Source of the DNA: Chrysochromulina tobinii
Taxonomy: Eukaryota
Length of the DNA stretch: 41,329 nt
NCBI GenBank assembly: GCA_001275005.1
Contig: JWZX01001780.1
Coordinates: forward strand, 1 to 41,329
Direction of reading: 5' to 3'
Numbering within the stretch: the stretch's first letter is position 1; each line of letters starts with the position of its first letter. Shown piece by piece: positions 97-41,113 of the stretch. Both the position numbers and the translations under genes were made by a program. The notes beneath the pieces are model-generated. The model was given only the letters and a program-made list of their open reading frames with translations. It was not told the DNA's origin and did no database searches.

Positions 97-1877
97 ATGG
101 ATTTGCTACGGCCTTCCGCGAAGCGCAGTCGGTGGCTCTTCCTTCCGGCGGCGATGCTTGTCTGCTGCATGCTTGGCCACGTCACTGCCGAGCTGTCGTC
201 GCCGCAATGGAACGAGGGCTGCCTCTGCGAGCTCAAGCCGACGCCCGCGGCTTCATCCTCGAGCCTCGCAATGCACACGATCTTTGGCCAGCGCTACTTC
301 CGCAAGAATGGGCGCGTCTCGCGGTTCTGCCCGTGCTCTGTCGAGACTGTGCAGCAGCTCAACCAAGAGCTTATCGCGCCGCTCCTCTTCCCGCTGCTGA
401 ACAGCACGTACTTCCGCTACGTCAAGCTCTCGCTCGAGCGGACATGCCCATTCTGGGACGACGGGCACGGCATGTGCGCGCTGCGCGACTGCGCCGTCGA
501 AGCGTGCAGCGCGGACGAGGAGCGGCGGCTGGACCAGTGCGGTGAGGAGCTCGGCGACGACCAGCTCGGGGATGTGCAGCGCACGGACGCCGCGACGCTC
601 GGCGAGCAAGCTCCGTCCTGGGACCTTGCTGCTTCCCGGTGGACAGACCAGCTCGAAGTGGACAACGACGGCGGCGCCGAGTACGTGGATCTCGTGGACA
701 ACCCGGAGCAGTACACGGGGTACAGCGCCGCCGCGGGCGCCTCGCGCATCTGGGACGAGCTCCACACGCACAACTCGTTCGCTGAGCACGGCGCCGACGA
801 TGCGCGCCACGCGGCGCCGATGGCGGTGGAGCAGCGGCTATTCGCGCGGCTGCTCTCGGGTCTGCATGCATCGGTCTCGTCGCACATTGCGATCCACTAC
901 CTGCTCGACCGGCGCAACGGCACCTGGGGGCTCGAGCTCGACGAGTACGCTAGACGGTTAGGTGAGCACTTAATAGACGGTTACGCTAGTCGAGTACCGG
1001 TCGCCGGAGAGGCTGCATCCCTCGATGATGCTCGATTGCCTTTGATTGCCGCTGATGATGAGTGATCATGCTTGGTTAGGTAACCACCCGGAGAGGCTGC
1101 ACCATCTGCACCTGACGTACCTGACGGTCCTGCGGGCGCTCGAGCTGGCGGCGTCGCACCTGAGCGAGCGCTTTGCGTTCTCGACAGGCATGCCCCGAGA
1201 GGACGCGCGAGTCGCGCGCGAGGTGCGCGCCCTCCTCGCCTCCCGCCCCGAGTGGCCTCTCACGTTTGAGGAGCAACGCGCCTTCGTGGGCGTACGATGC
1301 GCCTCGACGCTGGTCGCCTCGGCCGAGCAGATGTCCAAATTAGGCAGCTCGGACGACACAAATACTGGATGCCATCACGGCGCCGAGGAGGAGCTGCTCG
1401 CTGCGCGCACGCAACTGCTCGGCGAGTACCGCTCGCGACTGCAGAACATCTCGAAGCTCATGGACTGTGTGGGGTGCGGCCGCTGCCGGCTGTGGGGAAA
1501 GCTGCAGGTGCACGGTCTCGCGACGGCGCTCTCGCCCAGCATACCAGTGCTCACCACGGCGCGTGCTCCCTGCTCCACAGGTGCACGGTCTCGCGACGGC
1601 GCTCCGTATCCTATACGCTCCCCACCGTCAGCTTGTGCTTCACTCGCTGCAGAGGCCCGACGTCGTCGCGCTGTTCAACCTCCTCGGCCGTCTTGCCCAC
1701 TCGGTCGAGGTGGCGCGCGTCGTCGTGCCGCTGCTCGGCGGGTCTCCGCATTCGAAGTGCTCGCCGCGCGGGTGCAAGGCGTCCGAGTGGATCTCGGGCG
1801 ATGGCGACGATGAGACCAGCACGGTCCACCCCGATGGGCTTTTTGGCGCCGCCATGGGCGCCTCTCTCTTTAGTTGA
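97..1877 (+). CDS. ERO1: ER oxidoreductin 1 (ERO1); exons 97-961, 1080-1507, 1581-1877
   Basis: Signal-peptide-like N-terminus; CPFW...CALRDC shuttle cysteines; YVDLVDNPEQYTGY; LLSGLHASVSSHI; C-terminal MDCVGCGRCRLWGKLQ (CxxCxxC). GT-AG introns restore RLGNHPERL and KLQVHGLATALRILY. Confidence 0.93.
962..1079 (+). other. Intron (118 nt), ERO1 intron 1; motif-A-like 3' half plus patchwork copies of flanking exon
   Basis: GTGAGC...TTAG; GGTTAGGT at both junctions (956-963, 1074-1081); GATTGCC/CTGATGA repeats. Confidence 0.85.
1508..1580 (+). mobile_element. Introner-like intron (73 nt), motif B, 27-nt perfect flanking duplication
   Basis: CAGGTGCACGGTCTCGCGACGGCGCTC at 1505-1531 and 1578-1604; internal AGTGCTCACCACGGCGC; ends CCACAG. 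Confidence 0.85.
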
Positions 1878-5566: not shown

Positions 5567-5908
5567 AATCACTCAGTTTGTAATCAGGGTATGTGAGGAA
5601 GGGGTGCAAATCCATATCCCTCCCCTACCCCCTCGTGGGTAAATCACTCAGTTTGTAATCAGGGTATGTGAGGAAGGGGTGCAAATCCAGATATTAATCC
5701 CTCCCCTTACCCCTACCCCCTCGTGGGTAAATCACTCAGTTTGTAATCAGGGTATGAGGAAGGGGTGCAAATCCAGATATTAATCCCTCCCCTACCCCCT
5801 CGTGGGTAAATCACTCAGTTTGTAATCAGGGTATGAGGAAGGGGTGCAAATCCAGATATTAATCGATATTATTAATCCCTCCCCTTACCGCCTACCCCCT
5901 TGGGTAAA
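5567..5908. repeat. Minisatellite, 4 copies of a ~75-100 bp unit
   Basis: AATCACTCAGTTTGTAATCAGGGTATG...GGAAGGGGTGCAAATCC...CCCCTCGTGGGTA starting at 5567, 5642, 5730, 5809. Confidence 0.93.
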
Positions 5909-8634: not shown

Positions 8635-11600
8635 TCATCCGCGGGGACTGCCGCTCGGCGGCCTCGGGATCGCATAATGACCATCACCGGTAGCCGCCGC
8701 CCGCACCAGCGACGCCGGCGGCCCACCGGCCACGCCGCTAGGCGGCGTCCAAACGCGCTCCATCTTATGTGGAATGAGCCCAGTGGCTACTTGGCCAGAG
8801 GGGCGCGCGGGCATGAGTGAGCCCGTGGAGCGCCGTCCCGGCGTGGGGGGACGACCGAGCGCGAGCGGCGTGTTGAGCGCATTCTCGAGCGGGGTACGCG
8901 GGCGTGCCGAGGAGGCGGGCGGCGCGAGCGGCGAGGTCGCGAGCGCGGACCTCGGCGCGAGGGGCGTCGTGGTGAGGGCGGCGATCTTGGAGTTTGGCAG
9001 AGGCGCAGGGTCTGCAAGCGTGTAGATCAGGCTGTTGAGCGCCGAGGGCGTCAGCGCGGCCGACCTTGCCGTCGAGCCCACGACGGCGCCACCTGCACCA
9101 CTTGCTGGCGACGTAAGAGGCAGCGGCAGCCTTCCCGAGGCATGGAGCTTCGACATGGGGTCGGTGAGCGTTGTGACCGTCGCGGCGCGAGGCGGTACGC
9201 GCGGCACGGAGGCGGAGGGGCGCAGCCCTCGTCGAGGTGTATCGCTTTCGGCCGCTCGCATGTGCCGCTCGAGCATCCCTGCATCGGGCAGCGAGGGCCT
9301 CGCGCTCCGCTCGCGCCTCCGCCGCCTCGCGCAGGCTCTTGTGGGACAACTCAATCGCAGCCTGCGTCGCGGCAGCCGCCTCGGCGGCCGCGGTCTTGGC
9401 GCGGAGACGCAGCTCGTCAGGGTCGATCCCGGCATGCCCACGCGCCGTCTCGAGCGCCTCGTCGGCGTTCTTGGCGCGCGCCTGCTCGAGATAGAGCTGC
9501 TCGCGAAGCTTGGCCTCGGTCTCTGCGGCCTGCGCGATCTCCCACCGAGCTCGCTGCAGCTCGGCACGGAGCTTGTCGGCCACGTCCTTGGACTGCTGTG
9601 CTTCGGCCACCTCTCGCTGCACGTACGCGTCGAGCTCGTTCATCTTGAGGTACGCTTCGCGCGCCGTCATCACGAGACTCCCCTCTTGCTTGCGCAGCGC
9701 AGCGACCGACTCGCTCGCCTGCGAGAGCGCCGTGCTGAGCAGTTGCGTCTTCTCCATCTCGTCGTCGAGCTTGTTCGAGATCGCATCGCGCTCCTCGAGC
9801 GCCTTGTCGACGGCCTTGCGGCTCGCCTGCTCGGTCGCGACGCCCAAGACGACGCGTCAGCTCGCCATCAGTTTCCATCAGGGCCACTCATAGGCAATCA
9901 GAGGTCATCAGCTCACCTGCTCGGTAGCGACGCTCTCGCAGCGCACGTCCTCGGCATCGGCCTCCGCGTCACGCAGAGCCTTTCTCCGCAGGCCGAGCGT
10001 AACCGTCAGGCGCGAACACTGCCAGCGCAGCCGCGCGCGTGGTACCGAGCGTTGCAAGCGGGCCGCCATATCCTCCGCCGAGTCTTGCAGCAGCGCGAGC
10101 GCGCGTACGGTGTCTGCATGCACGGCACGCGTCTCATCGAGCGCGGCGCTCTTCTCTGCCATGAGCCGCTGCAGCCTCAAGACTTCCTGCATCACATCCG
10201 TCAGCGTGGGCGCGCGCTCGGTGGTGAGCACTTGCATGCAAGGCAGGCCATCAGCATGCAATCAACGTACCTGCATCACATCCGTCAGCGTGAGCGCGCG
10301 CTCGAGCTCGTCGGCCCTCGCCTGAAGCGCCTTCAGCTCGGCTTGCAGTTTGGCCGTCGCCTTCTCGAGCTTCGCCTTCTCGAGCTTCATGAAGACATTC
10401 TCACTGGTGAGAGCGGTGTTCTTCACGAGAAGGTCCGCCTTCTCCTTGAGCGCCCGCTTGAGCAGCATGTCCAGATTCGTCTTCTTGTGCAGCTGGTCCT
10501 CGAGATCCAGCTGCACCTGCATCGCCTTCTCCTTCTCGCGCCGCACTCGCTCCCTGTAGATGATCTCGACGTGCTTCGCAGAGTATTCCGAGTCGGTTTC
10601 ACGCAGCATCGAACCCGCGGCCTCGTCGATGGCTTTGTTGTCCGCCGACGTGGCCGCGATCCCGAGCAGCTTGTACAGCCTCATCGCGAGCAGCCCTTGG
10701 CTGCTGCTGCTGCTCCCGCCACCGCCACCGCTATCCTTGTCCTTGCTGCCGCTGCTGCCGCTGCTGTCCTTGCCACCCTTGCCGCCACCCTTGCCGCCGC
10801 CCTTGAATGAGCCGCCCTTGAATGAGCCGTCCTTGGCGCCGCTAGGCTCATTCAGCTCGCTCAAGTCGAGGTTGAGCATGCCGATGACGCCCCCCGAAGG
10901 ACCACCCACGACGTTGGCGGGCAGCGGGTGCCCCGAGAGCACCTCGTACTCACCCACAAAGTCTCCTGGCTGCGCGGTCTTCTTGTGTGCAAAGCCCTGC
11001 TCGACCGAGCCGTGAAGCACGATGCCAAAGTGCCCAAGCGTATGCTCACGCAGCATGATGGTCTGCCCGGCATGGAACTGGAGGATACGCATCCCGTCGA
11101 AGAGCATGCTCACCTCTTCCGCCGACAGCCCACGCTTCTCGAGCGCTGCCCGCGCCTTGTCGAAACGCGACTGCTTAGCGTCGGTGGCGCCGGCCCCGGC
11201 GCCGGCGCCTCCTCGGAAGCTCCCGACTGCCATGGCGAGGCGCAGCACCGCCTCAGAGGTTCGCGGGATGATCTCCTGGATCTGCTCCATCTTGCGCACG
11301 GCGGCGCGTCCCATGGCGCGCACCAGCGTCGTCGCGGTCGTCGCCGACTTTTCGAACAGTCGAGGCATGCTCCCAAACTGCACAGCCGCAACGGTGCCGG
11401 CTGAGATGCCGATCATCGAGGCGCCGCGCTTGCCGCCGCGGAAGAAGGCCATTTCGCCGACTATTCGTCCAGGCGTCAGCGTGGCGAGCACGTGCGACCC
11501 GTGCCGCACCTCGAGCTGGCCGCCGAGCAGCAACCCAAACCACGAGGCGTCCTCGCCTTGCGTGACAATCTCCTGGCCCTCGGAGAAGTCGATAAAGTCC

Positions 11601-27009: not shown

Positions 27010-29444
27010 ATGATGTGTCTCGTGTGTGCACCGGCTCCCAACGGTGTTTTTGCACGAGGTCAGTACGGGTTCCGGGAACTTTGTCTCAAGTGCTACGGGT
27101 ACATGGACGACCGGCTGGGTGTGACCCGCTCCCGGCAAACCGCCCGCGCGGTCATCGCTCGCGTCAATCCGGCCAAGGGCATGACGTTCGACGCCTCAAT
27201 GTGCAAGTACCGGGCCGTGCCGGCGGTGGCCGCTGCGCTCGGCTATACGGTGTTGACTGCGGAGGATGAGCGGGATCCCAATGCGCCGCCGGGCTGGAAC
27301 CTCTTCTGGACAGACCTTTCGGTCAGCCACCAGCGCGTTGCTGCGCTGCTCCCGCTGCAGAAAGTCAATCATTTCGCGGACATGACGACCTTGTGCAACA
27401 AGGCAACGTGCGCCAGCGTACTCAAGCGCGTGAGCCGCTCCTTCCCGCTCGAGTACAACTTCTACCCGCGGAGCTGGAAGCTGCCCAAGGAGGCGGCGGC
27501 GCTCCGCAAGCTCATGCTCAGCCCTGAGGCGCCGCGCGTGCTCATTGTCAAGCCCAACCGCGGTTGTCAGGGCGTCGACATCTCCATCTGCTGCACGAAC
27601 GACGAGCTCGACACAGCGCGTCAGGAGATGGGCCAGCAGTGCGTGGCGCAGGAGTACGTGGACAAGCCGCTGCTGCTCGACGGGTACAAGTTCGACCTGC
27701 GCATCTACGTGTGCGTCACGTGCTGCTCGCCCCTGCGCGTGCACTTGTATCGCGAGGGCATCGCGCGCCTGTGCACCGAAAAGTACGAGGCGCCCTCGGC
27801 GGGAGGACCGGCCATGATGGCGCCGCCGGCTGCCGCTGCGAGCCAATCTCCGCGTAGCTCGGCCAGTCGGCCAATGTCGGCGATCTCGGCCGCCAGGGCG
27901 GCGGGCAGGGTGGCTGCCAAGGCGACTGGTAAGGCGGACGCCAAGGGCAGTGCCAGCAGCAGCAGCGGCAGTGGCGCGAGCAACAGCAGAAATGAAAGCG
28001 GCTCGTCAACGGTCGCCCAGGCGGGGATGGAGGGAGTGTCCCCGTCAGGCAGCACCGCCGCGGGTGCCCCGGGAGCCGCAGCGTCGGATGGCGCGAGCTC
28101 GAGCGGCGCAGGCGTGCGCGCGCCCAAGACGGCGTCCAAGGTGACGGCGGCGGCGGCGGCGACTGACTGGCGCTACCGGCATCTGACGAACTATGCGATC
28201 AACAAGACGCATCCCGACTTCGTTGTGGGTGGTGAGGACGGCTCCTCGAAGCGGCTGCTCACCGAGCTGCTCGACACGCTCCGCCGCGACGGCTTCGACG
28301 TGGACATGCTCTGGGGGGAAGTACAGCAGCTGGTGGTCAAGACGCTGATCGCCGTGCAGCCGCACATAGCGCATTCGTATACGAGCTGTCGGCCCGCGAC
28401 GGACACGCACCCGTTCTCGTGCTTCGAGCTCCTGGGCCTCGACCTGCTCATTGATGAGAGTGGGCGCCCGTGGCTGCTCGAGGTGAACCACTCGCCCTCG
28501 CTCGAGCGCTGTGTGCTGATGACCGATGATGACCACTGATGACCAATGATTGCTTCCCTCATCAGGTGAACCACTCGCCCTCGCTCGCGACCGACACGCC
28601 CCTCGACCGCGAGCTCAAATCTCGTCTGCTCTCGGATACGATTCGACTCTGCTCCTTCTCGGCCGCCGAGGCGCGCTTGGTAGCACGCGCGGCGGAGCGG
28701 CGCGACGCGGCGCCCGCCGCGATCCCGAAGCTGCGCCCCATCGCCGAGCCGGGCTCCTCGGAGCGCTCACGGCGGCTCAGTGCTGACGGCGGCATCTCGA
28801 CGCTGCGTGCACGCCTAGAGGTCGCGCGTGAGCGTTCGAGGAGCGCTACGAGCGCTACGAGCGGCTTCAGCTCGGTCGCGGCGTCCTTTGGCTTCGGCGC
28901 GCGCGGGCTGGAAACACGACTCGGGATGCCCGGCGTCAAGCAGCAGCTCGTGCAGCAAGGCCTCGCGGAGCGCCGCCAGCAAGCAGAGCTGACCCAGGCG
29001 GAGCTGCTACGGTTGCGGGAAGAATATGAGGCGGCCAATTCGAGCTCATTCGAGCTCGTCTTCCCGGCGCCACATGAGAAGCTCCAGTCTCTCTATGAGA
29101 TGCTGCTCAACGCGTCGCTGCGCGCGTACATCGAGGAGTCCCCCGTCAACTTCAACGGCGGTGCGCGCGTGCCCATCCCGCCGCTGCTGCCACCCGACGC
29201 TGGTGCCGACTGGTGGTCGATGATCAAGCTCGGGCGCGTGGGCGAGCGCATCCTGCAGATGGGCAGTGACGCACCCAGCGCCATCGCGCGCTCGGCACAG
29301 CGCGACGCGGTCGCTTCGCGTACGGCGCGTCCGGGGGGGGAGCGCGAGCACTGCCGACCGACGGGCGCGCCGCCGGCCGACGAGGAGGACGGCGTCGACG
29401 GCGACGACGCCTCCGCTGGCCACTGTGTGACCTCGGAGATGTGA
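27010..29444 (+). CDS. Tubulin-tyrosine-ligase-like polyglutamylase (TTLL6/7/11/13-like); intron 28483-28565
   Basis: WNLFWTD, QKVNHF, FYPRSW, IVKPNRGCQG, QEYVDKPLLLDGYKFDLRIYV, HLTNYAINK, CFELLGLD, PWLLEVNHSPSL..DTPLD. Confidence 0.92.
28483..28565 (+). mobile_element. Introner-like intron (83 nt), motif A, 24-nt perfect flanking duplication
   Basis: AGGTGAACCACTCGCCCTCGCTCG at 28481-28504 and 28564-28587; TGATGACC(A/G) 10-mers; ends GATTGCTTCCCTCATCAG. Confidence 0.9.
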
Positions 29445-29983
29445 TCTCGGAGTGATCTCGGCCAGCAGGCGTCGTGCTGGGCGATTCGGAGCTGCCACCG
29501 TCCATGATGGTTGATGTACGGTAGAGGCGGCTGCTCCATGTATTCGTGGACGGAGGGAAATGCAGGATCAACTGGGCGGCATCGAAGATATGGGGCCCGG
29601 CCATTCAAAGCTGAGAGCTGTATTGCATCGTTGGCAATCGTTCGAGACGTTCGATCGGATCGTTGATCGTCGTCACGGGAAGCTCGGTGCGTGCCCGGGT
29701 ACCGACTTATCTTCACCACTTCAGTAACTTTAGTCTGTACATCCGCTAAGTACCGTATCCCACAATCGATCAAGAACCGCCCGTGGCCGTGCCGACTTAC
29801 ACATGCGCGATGCTCGAACCAAATTCGATTGTTCATCCGCGCCCCCCTCGCGGCCGGCCGGACTTTATTCGGTTGGCGTCGACAATGATCGGACTTGCCG
29901 TGGCCCCGTGGCTGCACAGGACGCCGAATGGACCACGTAATTACGTTCTACCGCTCCACCGGCGCACCGCCGACCCAACGGCA

Positions 29984-32900
29984 TTATGGATTCGCCGCCT
30001 GGGCGCTCAGCCACTGGGCCAGTGACTGGGCGCCAAGCCGATACCTCGACCCCGTCTCCGTCCACACGCACGAGGCAGGGTAGTCACGACGCTCGGGCGG
30101 CACAAAGCTCGTAGTCACCCACTTGCCGTCACCCACGCCCGGCTTGCCGTACACGCGCCCTCGGAAGCGACCGTCCGCAGTCAGGCTCCACTCCTCGAGC
30201 AGAGGGGCAGCGCTCGGGGCAGCGCTCGGAGGACGCACCACCTCGGAAGACGATGAGGCAACGGAGGTGGGTCCCGCGCCAGTCGCAGGCACGGCAGCCG
30301 TGACACCAGCCCTCGTGGCAGCGGAGGCCGATGCGCTGGCTGACGCGGCGGCCGGAGCAGCGCGCAGGGCCGCCTTACCCTTGGGTGGTGGTGCGCCGAG
30401 CGGTGGAGGCGCCGTGTCGAGCGGTGGAGGCGCCATGCCGCGCGGTGGAGGCGCCATTGACAGCTGCGGCGCCATTCGTGGCGCCTTGGAGGCAGGAGCC
30501 GCATCCACGGCTCCCGTCACGGCGCCACTCGTAGCACCTCCATCCCTGGCGGCAGCCACGGCAACGCGCTTCTTCCCAGCGCTCGGGGCAGGTGTGCCTT
30601 CGCCCGGCGCGACGCCACCAGGCGGTAGCGACGGTGGTCCGGTTCCAGCACTCGCACCGGAGTCGAGACAGCACCAACGGCCGTACTTGATCGGAACGGG
30701 TACGTGCGGAGCGGGTGGAGGCGCAGAGTCCGCCCTCGGTGCGCTGAGGTGGGCACTCGCGCCGTAGTGAGCACTTGCATGCGAGCCGGCCCTGGGTGCG
30801 CCGGCGGAGGCCTCGTTGCTCGCGTCGGTGTCGGCTATGCGTTTGTCTCGGCGTGAGGGCAGGCGGGCAATGAGCGGGGCGGGTGCGACGAGTGGCGCCG
30901 AACCCGCCGACCCTGCCGAGCGGTCGACACACTGCGGACCATCTCCAAGCTTGCTGACCATTCCCATGCCTGCCGTTACAGCCGCCGATGAAGATGCCAC
31001 ACTCTTCTTGCCCGCGGCCGCCGTCACCGTCGCCGCCGGCGGCGGCGGCCTTGCTGCGCCCACAGCGGCCGCGCCCGCGCCCTTGGGTGCGCCGCGGCCG
31101 GAGGTGGCTGTAGGGGCGGCGGGCGGCTCGACGAAGGTTGGGCTCTCCGGCTGCGGCGGCCGCGGTCGCTTGCTTGAGAGCTCGCCGTCGAAGGAGCCGT
31201 CTAATGAGAGTCCATCGACAGAAGCGTGATCGACCTCGTGACGAGATTGTCGAGATTGACGAGACTGATCGGCCTCGCGACGACGGCGCTCGGACGCACG
31301 GCGCTCCGCCTCGCGCGGCGGCGGCGGCTGCGGCGGCGGCGGCGGCGGCTGCAGCTGCGGCGGCGGCTGCTGTCTCTTCTCCACTCGCTTCGCCTTGCGC
31401 GCCGAGTCCTTCTCGGCCTCGACCTCGCGCTTGAGCCGCTGCGCCTCGGCTCGCTCCTTGTCGCGCGCTTGCTGCTGCCGGCGCTGCTGCATCTGCTGGA
31501 ACTTGGCCCAAAAGTCGGGGTCGTCGAGTGGCAACTCCTCTCCGTCTCCAACGGCCGCCCGAAACGAGGCGCGTGCAAACAGCGACGAGCCGCCGCTGCC
31601 ACCTCCGAGGCCGCCGCCGCCGCTGCCGATCACGCCACCGCCGCCCATACCGGCCGAAGAGCCTTTAGAGGTCGATGTGGCAGCATCGGCCGCTGCTTCC
31701 CTCTCTGCGGCATCGAGCATCTCGTCAAGGTCTTCCTCTCCGTACCCCGGGTCGTCCGCGTCCGAGCGGAGCAATCCATAGGCGCCCCAGCGCAACAGGT
31801 CCTCGATTTCGGCGCGGCTCAGCCCGCTGCGCTCGCTTGCGCCCCGGGAGAGCGGACGCGCCGCGCCGCCGCCGCCTTCAGCGGGCACGGCGACAAGGTC
31901 GGCATCCACCAGGTCGCCGTCCACCAGGTCGGCATCCACCTTCGCATCCGCTACCTCCGCATCGTCGGCCTCGCCGCCCTCGCCGTCGGCGCTCTCGCCC
32001 ATCAAATCGAGCTTCGGGGGCCGACGCGGGTGCGTCTCGGCCTTCGCCGTTGCAGCTGGCCCGACGTCAACAAGCACCTCGTGCGCCGCGCCGAAATCTC
32101 CCCCTTGGAGCAGCGCGTGGTCAAGGGAGAGCTTCTTCATGGCCCGATCGAGCATGCGCTCCTCGTACGTGCCACGCGTCACGAGCCGGTAGACTTGCAC
32201 AGGCCGCTCCTGCCCAATGCGGTGCGCGCGCGCCTGGCCCTGCATATCGCCTTGTGGGTTCCAATCGGAGTCGAAGATGATGACTGTGTCGGCCGCCGTC
32301 AGGTTGATGCCCTGTCCGCCCGCGCGCGTCGTGAGCAAGAAGACGAAGCAGGCCGCGTCGGATTGGAACCGATCGATGGCCCTCTGGCGCGCGTCCCCCT
32401 TGACGGTGCCGTCGACGCGCTCGTAGTCGCCGAGCACCGGTGCACGCAGCTCAAGGTAATCTTCGAGTAAGTCGAGCATGATCGCAAACTGCGAGAAGAG
32501 GAGCACCTTGTGCCCGCGCGCCTTGAGGCGTGGCAACAGCTTGTCGAGCAGAACCATCTTGCCTGAGGAGTCGACGAGGGTCCGTACACCCTGCTCCACC
32601 GTCGCGCTCAGCCTCGATCGACGCTCCTCGAGACCCAAGTTGAGCGCCGAGTTGAGCGCCGGGTTGAGCGCCGAGTTGAGCGCCGAGTTGAGCGCCAAGT
32701 TGAGCGCCGAGTTGAGCGCCGGGTTGAGCGCCGGGTTGAGCGCCTCGCTCGCCGACGCCGCAGTCGAGGCTCGAGCGATGCGGGGTCGGTTGCCTGCCGT
32801 GGCCTTGGCATCAAGCTTGACGCTCGCCGGCAACGCGGGCGCGGGCGTGGGCGCAGGGGCGACAGGTGCCGGCGGGGGTAGCTGGCAGAGCTGCTCGGCG

Positions 32901-34346
32901 GCGAGCTGCGCACTCACGAGGGCAGCCTGCTCGCCCTCCGTGCCTCTCTCTAGGAGCATCGGGTGGTTACAGGCCTTGCGCAGCTGCATGAACACGTTGC
33001 GCAGCGACGAGCGCGGGTTTTGGATGTGCTCCACCGAGCAGTCCATCAGAGCGCGGTACACGCGCATCTGCGAGGGCGTGAGAGACACCTTGAGCAGTGT
33101 CTCTCTCTTCGTAGGAAGTGGCTGAGTGAGCTCGGCCTTGGTGCGACGCAGCACGTACGGGCGTAGCATCTGCTGCAGCTCCACTACCTGCTCCGGTCGC
33201 CGCAGGTCACCGTACCGGCTGAGTAGCTCGGGACGACGCGCCTCCCCGAAAGCCTCCTCGTCCAAAAAGGACATCAGACCGAGGAGCTCTGGTACGTCAT
33301 TTTGCACTGGCGTGCCCGTGAGCAACGTGCAGTGCGGCACCTGCAGCGCGCGCAGCGACGCGGCGAATTTGGTGCGTGGGTTCTTGAGCCGGTGCGCCTC
33401 GTCGACGATCAGATACTGCCATGGGATGGCCGAGATCGCTGCGAGCTCAGCCGTGAGCCCCTCGGGCGCCGTAATGAGCACATGGTACCGCCGGCAGCCG
33501 GTGCGCCGCTGGCGCGCATCCGTGTGGTGCTCCTCGTTCGCAAGCAGCGAGTGGCGCGCCTCGGCGGGGCCGGTGAGCACCACGCCGCTCAGAGAGGTCC
33601 AGGCGCGCACCTGAGGAGGGAGGCAATCATTGGTCATCAGTGGTCATCAGTGGTCATCAGTGGAAGAGGGCCGCATGCAGCGACGTCCAGGCACGCACCT
33701 CACGCTCCCAGTGTGCGAGCGTCGAGACGGGCGCGACGACCAAAAAGGGACCTTGCACGTTCCGATGGCGGCTCAGCCATTCGAGCGTGAGCAGCAGCTG
33801 GCATGTCTTACCCAGCCCCATCTCGTCCGCCAGGATGGCGGAACGGCCCGCGTGCCAGCATGCCAGCAACCAATTAATGCCCTCGAGCTGGTAGCCACGC
33901 AGCGCACGCCCCGGAGGCAGCTGCAGCTCCGGCTCGGTCTGGGGTCGGAAGGGTCGGCTCCTCTCAACAGCCCGCATCTCATCGGAGGGCGCAGGCAGAG
34001 GTGGGCGCACCAGCAGCGCGTGGCAGCGGCGCCATGCCTCAGCGGCGCCACATAGCCGGCGCGCGCGCGCCCACGGTAGCCAGGAGAGCTGCGCATAGTC
34101 AAGGCCACGCCACTTGATCAGCACTAACGAGCGCCGGCGAGGCGGCGTTTGTGCGGCAGCAGCGGCAGCAGCGGCAGCAGCGGCAGCAGCGGCAGCAGCG
34201 GCAGCAGCGGCAGCGGTCGATGGCACTCGCCCGGCCTCTGCCGCTGGACCGGCAGAGCAACCCCCGCTCGGGCGCCCTTCTGGCGCGCCCTCCCGATGAC
34301 GAAAGGGCGTGTCGTTGTCGCCGCCGCCGCCGCCGCCGCCGCCGCT

Positions 34347-40110: not shown

Positions 40111-40157
40111 AGGTCATCTGTGAAGGTCATCTGTGAAGGTCATCTGTGAAGGGCATC
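40111..40157. repeat. 13-bp tandem repeat (~3.5 copies)
   Basis: AGGTCATCTGTGA repeated, downstream of the bromodomain gene. Confidence 0.8.
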
Positions 40158-40332: not shown

Positions 40333-41113
40333 TCATGGCGCACCCCCTGTGAGTGAGATGGTGGCTGCAAGCAGCGAGCGCACGTGCATGTCGAGCCGGA
40401 TGAAGGTCTTGGGCTCGAGCGCGTCCACGTCAATCTTGATTTCGCGCCCGTCGGCGCACGTCTCGACCGCATGCGACGAGAACGCCTCGGCGAGCCGCCC
40501 GATCTGCACTCGCTGGTCGTCGCTCAGCTTGACGACGTTGTCAAGAAGCTGGTGGCGCATCTGCGGCGTGATGAAGAAGGGCGCTCCGCTCTGCACAGGC
40601 ACGTTGCCCACACCACGAATGGACAGAGGCGGCGCGCGCGTCACGCCGGACGGCTTGCGTGCGAGGCCAGGAGGACGAGATTCGGCCTCCGAGAACTTCT
40701 TGGACGCAATCGAGCGCATCTCGTCAATGTACTTTTTGATCCACGAGTTCGGGCCGTTGTAGGTGAGTGCGTTCTGCCAGACGAGGTCGACGTCCGCGCG
40801 CAGCGCCGCCACAGTCTCGTACTCTAGGCTCTCGAGCTTTCGAAGGATGGTGCTCAAATCCATCGGATGCTCGATCACCTGTGGGGAAGGGGGGGGCGCC
40901 GTGGTGAGCACTTGCATGCAGGGCCGGTGGAGCTCAAATCCATCGGATGCTCGATCACCTCGAGGTAGTTCCACAACTGCAATTTCTGCCAGTCGACCGG
41001 GTCCTTGAAGTATTTGGCCGACGGCTGCTGACGCAAGAGCCTGATCACCTTGTGGTACCTGCTCGCTACCTCCTCGCGCCCCTCGAGGTACCTGGCACCG
41101 CCGCCGCCGCCGC

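What the first reader, a model, noticed from the sequence alone, without database searches (positions are those of the whole stretch)
30726..30801. A 'failed intron': the same element retained in frame inside a CHD exon
Seen: motif B (23/24 identical to the bromodomain intron) plus an acceptor-like CCCACCTCAG, flanked by a 16/19 duplication with a 57-nt period and no stop (adds GAPRAGSHASAHYGASAHL). A frame-preserving 57-nt intron would have to start with CG. The adjacent GC would give 58 nt and frameshift away the structured C-terminal domain (LEEWSLTADG...TGSRYRLG). All 11 family introns are non-3n or contain an in-frame stop. Inference: insertion does not depend on splicing, and selection keeps copies that are spliceable or harmless in frame. 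The element therefore also donates protein sequence.
Basis: partly seen in the sequence, partly recalled or inferred. Interest (0 to 1): 0.82.

Follow-up and report, generated by a model that had tools for sequence, protein, structure and literature searches.

The report
Would-be intron kept as protein code
In a haptophyte alga, a short sequence shared with three predicted introns nearby sits inside a chromatin-remodeller gene and stays in the assembled RNA, so it likely adds 19 amino acids to a predicted floppy linker, which suggests that the insertion process making this alga's introns also leaves unspliced copies that become protein.

Summary
In detail: a 24-nt motif (23/24 to the bromodomain intron) lies between two 19-nt repeats (16/19, period 57), stop-free, in exon 2 of a CHD-type gene. 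Retention is supported: 4 of 4 RNA runs laid have a gap-free contig across it and none skips it, while two neighbouring introns are spliced, each in 2 of 4 runs (contigs only, depth 2.5-4.3). All 13 protein rows covering the site carry the 19 aa; no empty site was found. Corrections: the 'acceptor' AG needs a Ser codon seen in only 4 of 13 rows; 9 of 13, including all 3 rows of the divergent clade, have Gly, which completes a 7-codon duplication, so the AG is probably younger than the insertion. '11 of 11 introns non-3n or with stop' is true but expected by chance (P 0.46), and only 3 carry this motif. The site is a predicted disordered linker of a gene with 10 other in-frame length polymorphisms. 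Verdict: a real, likely neutral exonic copy of a duplication-plus-filler intron-forming element. One case; splicing-independent insertion is inferred, not shown.

The parts
30783..30801 (-). First copy of the 19-nt duplication (likely duplicated target site); begins with the GC that would be the donor of a 58-nt intron
   Evidence: 7-codon protein repeat is perfect in P0011 and P0017-P0019
30759..30782 (-). Motif B, 24 nt, with a branch-point-like CTCAC 24 nt before the AG; stop-free in all three sense frames
30745..30758 (-). Rest of the 38-nt core: short, weak pyrimidine tract (0.58 against 0.73 and 0.93 in two motif-B introns) with an earlier AG 12 nt after the branch-point-like A
30744..30745 (-). 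The 'acceptor' AG; part of a Ser codon present in 4 of 13 homologous protein rows, Gly in 9 of 13
30726..30744 (-). Second copy of the 19-nt duplication
29984..33610 (-). Exon 2 of the CHD-type gene (SNF2-related and Helicase_C domains, long low-complexity tail, C-terminal domain)
30026..30208 (-). Conserved, confidently folded C-terminal beta domain downstream of the element; weak SANTA-like resemblance
33611..33698 (-). CHD intron 1, 88 nt GT-AG, 23-nt duplication, motif A; spliced in RNA (internal control)
28483..28565 (+). Intron of the neighbouring gene, 83 nt, 24-nt perfect duplication, motif A; spliced in RNA (control)
40879..40958 (-). Motif-B intron in the bromodomain gene, 80 nt, 33-nt duplication; predicted from frame, not examined in RNA
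10187..10270 (-). Motif-B intron, 84 nt, with stop, 35-nt duplication of the upstream exon; predicted, not examined in RNA
1508..1580 (+). Motif-B intron (2 mismatches in the 16-mer), 73 nt, 27-nt perfect duplication; predicted, not examined in RNA

Best explanation
The 57 bases stay in the RNA contigs and in frame, and are likely an insertion of the same duplication-plus-filler kind that likely made many of this alga's introns, which would here have landed without a usable splice-site pair and been tolerated as 19 extra residues in a predicted disordered linker. Steps: (1) a 36-38-nt filler carrying motif B entered the exon and 19-21 nt of target were duplicated (inferred from the footprint; no empty site seen); (2) in the introns the duplicated target supplies a GT donor, or the AG, and the filler supplies a branch point and often the acceptor (shown in sequence for 7 of 11 introns; splicing shown for 2); (3) here the duplicated target begins with a weak GC, the total is 3n, motif B has no stop in any sense frame, and the AG probably arose later by one substitution in part of the population (inferred by parsimony from protein rows); (4) the copy is read through (shown at RNA-contig level; translation inferred) and was fixed, likely by drift, before the two sampled lineages split. 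The most likely mover is a DNA-level process that repairs or integrates at staggered cuts of variable length (inferred; no enzyme identified).
For: Gap-free contigs across the site in 4 of 4 RNA runs laid (X13 30579-30997, X14 30378-30979, X15 30339-30880, X16 30371-30939), no joint skipping it; the same gene's intron is bridged in spliced form at like depth in X15 and X16 (4.09, 3.85 against 3.8, 3.5). Motif enrichment. 17-35-nt duplications at 7 of 11 introns. P0017 reads GAPRADSHASAHYGVSAHLGAPRADS: perfect 7-codon repeat; Gly in 9 of 13 rows, clades split at 100/100. All candidate acceptors near the element score -6 to -12 on a matrix from the 11 introns, the 39-nt option has the worst donor (-4.1) and is about half the shortest intron (73 nt). 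Element region pLDDT 44-47, no secondary structure. 10 other in-frame indel blocks among 7 near-full-length rows.
Against: No motif-B intron was examined in RNA. No empty-site homolog. The allele evidence is protein predicted from DNA, so the Leu codon before Gly was not seen. The core's last bases resemble the element-borne acceptors of motif-A introns, and in 3 introns the AG is clearly element-borne, which favours an original AG; parsimony prefers Gly by one step only. The matrix is weak: a likely real motif-B acceptor scores -10.6 in leave-one-out.
Confidence: 0.68

Rival explanations
1. Once a real intron: a clean 58-nt GC-AG intron (donor from the duplicated target at 30801, acceptor from the filler, as in the window's other introns) was poorly spliced and later became exon when one base was lost at its 3' end, restoring the frame.
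For: The geometry is that of the family: the duplication starts exactly at the would-be donor as in 5 of the introns, branch-point spacing is 24 nt against 26-27, and the core ends like motif-A acceptors. Both the Ser and the Gly forms are one base from such an intron.
Against: Needs two events against one; all 11 window introns use GT; the 15 Chrysochromulina introner family rows I saw in PMC9860276 Table 6 list no GC donors; no frameshifted or 58-nt allele among 13 rows, though such an allele would be missed by a protein search.
Confidence: 0.15
2. Mostly retained but spliced at low level or under some conditions, as a 39-nt in-frame GC-AG intron (30782-30744) or a 58-nt frameshifting one whose product is degraded.
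For: The window allele has a branch-point-like motif and an AG at family spacing; contigs hide minor forms.
Against: No joint in 4 of 4 runs; weak donors; AG absent by inference in 9 of 13 rows.
Confidence: 0.08
3. The segment is normally spliced and the spanning contigs come from DNA carry-over or unspliced precursor.
For: No silent-stretch control; contigs cross the space between two genes; other motif-bearing loci appear unspliced in the same runs (loose ends at 30759-30783).
Against: The same gene's intron is bridged as spliced in unbroken contigs at the same depth; no frame-preserving 57-nt intron exists; the frame is open in 13 of 13 rows.
Confidence: 0.04
4. No mobile element: an ordinary tandem duplication in a repeat-rich linker, with the motif copied in from an intron by local repair or gene conversion, or present by chance.
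For: The gene is full of in-frame duplications; the core holds an internal imperfect repeat; identity among copies is limited to 16-24 nt.
Against: Chance is excluded for the motif; the same motif plus long duplication recurs at 4 of 4 copies in unrelated genes.
Confidence: 0.05

Closest known systems
Introners (Gozashti et al. 2022, bioRxiv 10.1101/2022.06.06.494994 passages; PMC9860276 supplement rows)
   Same: Repeated short intron-forming sequences that take one splice site from a target-site duplication; reported in marine Chrysochromulina MAGs; Aureococcus introners add 4 amino acids to the host protein.
   Different: Duplications here are 17-35 nt and variable (4 nt in their Chrysochromulina example); similarity between copies covers 16-24 nt, not the whole intron; this copy is not spliced at all. 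'tobin' occurs once in the stored supplement, in the list of screened genomes (file cut when stored).
Introner-like elements of Symbiodinium and Polarella glacialis (Roy et al., bioRxiv 10.1101/2020.10.14.339549, parts 1-2 of 4 read)
   Same: Donor recruited from the 5' end of the duplication and acceptor carried by the element (classes 4, 5); several frames of splice-site recruitment; GC donors used.
   Different: Fixed 3-8-nt duplications; the parts read describe spliced copies only.
Intron gain by tandem genomic duplication of AG|GT and by staggered double-strand-break repair (review PMC3443670 passages; Drosophila Bap170 case, PMC2809761 passages)
   Same: Direct repeats at the junctions; imprecise events add codons (Bap170: 16/18-bp repeat, 12 bp kept in the mRNA).
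   Different: The filler here recurs across unrelated genes, which neither model predicts.
Replitron-1 of Chlamydomonas (PMC10288648 passages)
   Same: Variable-length target-site duplications; one Replitron locus is reported in C. tobinii.
   Different: Elements are 0.9-3.6 kb with terminal direct repeats; no link to motif B was tested or seen.

Membership tests
Introner (this copy) | Spliced out of the transcript as an intron | tested here: not met
   Gap-free contigs across it in 4 of 4 RNA runs laid, no joint
Introner (family) | Sequence-similar copies in unrelated genes | tested here: met
   4 copies in 4 genes, 0.04 expected; similarity limited to 16-24 nt
Introner (family) | Similarity along the whole intron | tested here: not met
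   Outside the motif the three motif-B introns are made of local exon duplicates and different tracts
Introner (family) | Motif-B introns are spliced | not tested
   Only two motif-A introns lay in the stretch examined in RNA; motif-B introns rest on frame restoration
DNA-transposon-type introner | Target-site duplication of short fixed length | tested here: not met
   Duplications of 17-35 nt, variable, at 7 of 11 introns and 19 nt here
DNA-transposon-type introner | Terminal inverted repeats | tested here: inconclusive
   None evident in the printed cores; one search showed only the 25 longest inverted repeats of the window
Transposable element | Empty-site allele or ortholog | tested here: inconclusive
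   13 of 13 rows carry the 19 aa; more distant hits match only the C-terminal domain
Transposable element | Autonomous partner encoding the mobilising enzyme | not testable with these tools
   No genome held for the window
Tandem genomic duplication intron (AG|GT model) | Duplicated segment contains AG followed by GT | tested here: not met
   Not in this copy; met at 4 of 11 introns where the duplication spans AG|GT over 23 nt or more
Exonised element | Peptide is translated | not testable with these tools
   Open frame in 13 of 13 rows and retention in RNA; no proteomic or ribosome data

The most novel reading that the evidence does not exclude
This alga has an active, undescribed insertion process that drops short branch-point-bearing fillers into genes with 17-35-nt target duplications, blind to splicing; copies that hit a splice-compatible target become introns and stop-free 3n copies become new peptide, so the genome holds many such exonic copies and the same mutational source builds both introns and disordered protein linkers.
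Probability: 0.3. Interest if true: 0.75.

Novelty: new variant of a known kind. Interest (0 to 1): 0.45.

Why it matters
Intron-forming elements are nearly always found by looking at introns, so the copies that failed are invisible and the debate between DNA-level insertion and reverse splicing is hard to test. An unspliced, in-frame copy with the same footprint is the missing class. If many exist, their orientation, target sequence and length modulo 3 give the insertion spectrum before selection for splicing, and they show a route by which such elements add residues to disordered regions. As a single, probably neutral 19-aa addition in a linker that tolerates many indels, this copy is modest.

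Tried and rejected
Empty-site ortholog: two word-indexed searches (each scored only about 7,990 candidates within a length band) and one full HMMER scan gave two clusters covering the site, both with the insertion; the 140 other hits gave no linker match better than E 0.5; P0017 found nothing in viral contigs. HASAH-like peptides: none in those 140 hits; no proteome-wide search was possible. More motif-B copies: no genome; the 39-nt metagenome scan gave 3 loci whose central 240 nt are identical to the window, so not independent; viral scans gave one locus with the 24-nt motif and otherwise short matches without flanking duplication; prokaryote genomes 0; motif A gave one viral locus that looks unrelated. 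The joints from 30782 to 33599/33633 have sides of 23-24 nt and foreign letters between, and were rejected as other motif-bearing loci. My early idea that the AG always comes from the duplicated target was rejected: in 3 introns the upstream exon does not end in AG. The 11-of-11 pattern was rejected as evidence of selection. Synonymous-only differences between the repeat copies (2 of the 3 mismatches, the third polymorphic) are too few to count. Weak likeness of the linker to domain-bearing hits (E 2-3 in a small set) was dropped. Six protein rows that do not cover the site (P0006, P0009, P0010, P0012, P0013, P0015) were left out of the allele count; 4 of 19 cluster members were not listed. 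Literature searches showed no description of this family or of an unspliced in-frame copy in haptophytes; bioRxiv supplements and the cut part of the PNAS supplement were not seen.

Full report
Setting. The segment lies on the minus strand in exon 2 (33610-29984) of a gene with a chromo domain in exon 1 and SNF2-related and Helicase_C domains. A named record in the protein's cluster, KOO32417.1 of Chrysochromulina tobinii, lies on a contig of 41,329 nt, the window's length; that annotated protein is partial and stops before the site. No whole genome was held.

Observation. All sequence statements check out. The 24-nt motif matches the bromodomain intron at 23 of 24 positions; the flanking 19-mers match at 16 of 19 with period 57; no GT or GC donor gives a 57-nt intron, the GC at 30801 gives 58 nt and the GC at 30782 gives 39 nt. 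The 16-nt motif occurs 4 times in the window against 0.04 expected. A repeat this good and this close brackets 1.0% of window positions and 1.4-2.3% of positions in this exon.

Is it retained? Six RNA runs hold part of the gene; four were laid on 28300-33800. Each has one contig crossing the element with no gap and no other letter, with at least 79 nt on both sides, and no joint skips it. Two introns in the same stretch are bridged in spliced form: 28483-28565 in 2 of 4 runs and CHD intron 1 in 2 of 4, the latter at depths 4.09 and 3.85 against 3.8 and 3.5 for the contigs over the element in the same runs. Limits: these are contigs, which drop rare forms; depth is 2.5-4.3; the runs may be one campaign; table 8 was cut; no silent stretch and no motif-B intron was examined in RNA, so DNA carry-over is argued against only by the internal control.

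Homologs. Two clusters cover the site. Of 19 protein rows then held, 13 cover it (11 distinct over the aligned part; P0007 is probably the window's own strain) and all 13 carry the 19 residues. The divergent clade (P0017-P0019, 74-87% identity, split 100/100) reads GAPRADSHASAHYGVSAHLGAPRADS, a perfect 7-codon repeat around 12 codons. The Ser whose codon makes the window's AG is in 4 of 13 rows; 9 of 13 have Gly, which lengthens the repeat. Parsimony makes Gly ancestral by one step (inference; allele DNA not seen; a G-to-A change at a CpG would be a common mutation, recalled, not tested). Either way the acceptor is not conserved. These rows are predictions from DNA: they show an open frame, not translation.

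Protein context. In a model of the last 328 residues the element region has pLDDT 44-47 and no secondary structure, while the C-terminal domain has 86-98. Ten other in-frame indel blocks segregate among 7 near-full-length rows. The linker takes insertions easily, so drift is enough to explain survival.

The family. I delimited 11 introns from frames; all are GT-AG, 73-145 nt; 7 of 11 have a 17-35-nt duplication across the junctions. Either the downstream exon is copied into the intron's start and gives the GT, or the upstream exon is copied into its end and gives the AG. Fillers carry motif A (TGA-rich ~10-nt units) or motif B (3 of 11). In three introns the AG is element-borne. The useful point is different: motif B is stop-free in all three sense frames, so motif-B copies are the ones that can survive as exon. 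An earlier AI note on another piece of this genome (e1-2577349) describes the same footprint at a 66-nt intron; I confirmed the footprint here but not its count of relatives, and it is not independent support.

Mechanism. Most likely (0.68) a filler entered with a 19-21-nt target duplication, met no GT and probably no AG in the right register, was 3n and stop-free, and has been read through since before the two lineages split. The main rival (0.15) is a 58-nt GC-AG intron that became exon by losing one base; its geometry fits the family well but it costs one more event and GC donors were seen neither in the window nor in the 15 Chrysochromulina family rows read. Low-level splicing (0.08), DNA carry-over (0.04) and no element (0.05) remain. 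Shown: motif, duplication, open frame, retention in contigs. Inferred: insertion, its order of events, its enzyme, translation, neutrality. One sense-oriented copy cannot prove that insertion ignores splicing.

Comparison. It works like an introner that recruits a splice site from its target duplication (passages of bioRxiv 10.1101/2022.06.06.494994; parts 1-2 of 4 of bioRxiv 10.1101/2020.10.14.339549), but this copy fails the defining test of being spliced, and the family differs in long variable duplications and in sharing only short motifs. Codon gain at such insertions is known: 4 residues in Aureococcus and 12 bp at Drosophila Bap170 (passages of PMC2809761). Duplication and break-repair models (passages of PMC3443670) explain the repeats but not a recurring filler. 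Replitron-1 makes variable duplications (passages of PMC10288648), a lead only. Passages of PMC12130899 and of the C. tobin genome paper PMC4580454 did not mention the family; seven searches (listings only) showed no description of it. Unseen supplements may bear on this.

Verdict. Real and retained; a new variant of a known kind; interest 0.45. Its value lies in pointing to the class of failed copies, which a genome-wide count would turn into a direct test of how these introns are inserted.

Noticed in passing
window 30026-30208 (-): The CHD protein ends in a ~55-residue beta domain shared with about 140 clusters; no Pfam hit on the window copy, but the best fold match is the M18BP1 SANTA domain (E 0.022, probability 1.00, below the E threshold) and one homolog has a sub-threshold SANTA hit (E 0.0024). 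A CHD remodeller with a SANTA-like tail would be unusual.
   Followed up: partly
window about 30000-30034 (-): A second in-frame addition near the stop: 27 nt (9 residues) absent from the divergent clade, made of an 8-nt duplication around a filler that folds into a hairpin (-13.1 kcal/mol with flanks). Here the empty site is seen.
   Followed up: partly
window 962-972 (+): The first intron of the left-most gene begins with the reverse complement of the motif-B core, so the branch-point-like motif reads as a GT donor on the other strand.
   Followed up: no
window 33611-33698 (-): The duplicated exon copy at the start of CHD intron 1 differs from the exon at three third-codon positions and reads on in frame for several plausible residues before the motif-A repeats.
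   Followed up: no
window 40111-40144 (-): A 13-nt motif-A-like unit repeated three times lies downstream of the bromodomain gene's stop, outside any predicted intron.
   Followed up: no
L004 401-460 / L014: The last 60 bases of an IMG/VR contig that otherwise encodes a phage-like primase carry the full 24-nt motif, a pyrimidine tract and CAG; possibly a chimeric contig end.
   Followed up: partly
P0002, P0003, P0011, P0014, P0016 at P0001 position 501: A perfect 10-residue tandem duplication just after the helicase domain is present in 5 of 7 near-full-length rows and absent from the window allele.
   Followed up: no
window 5567-5880: Four copies of a 75-88-nt AT-richer unit between two genes.
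   Followed up: no
window 29343-30310: RNA contigs cross the space between the two convergent genes in 3 of 4 runs: overlapping 3' UTRs or DNA carry-over.
   Followed up: no
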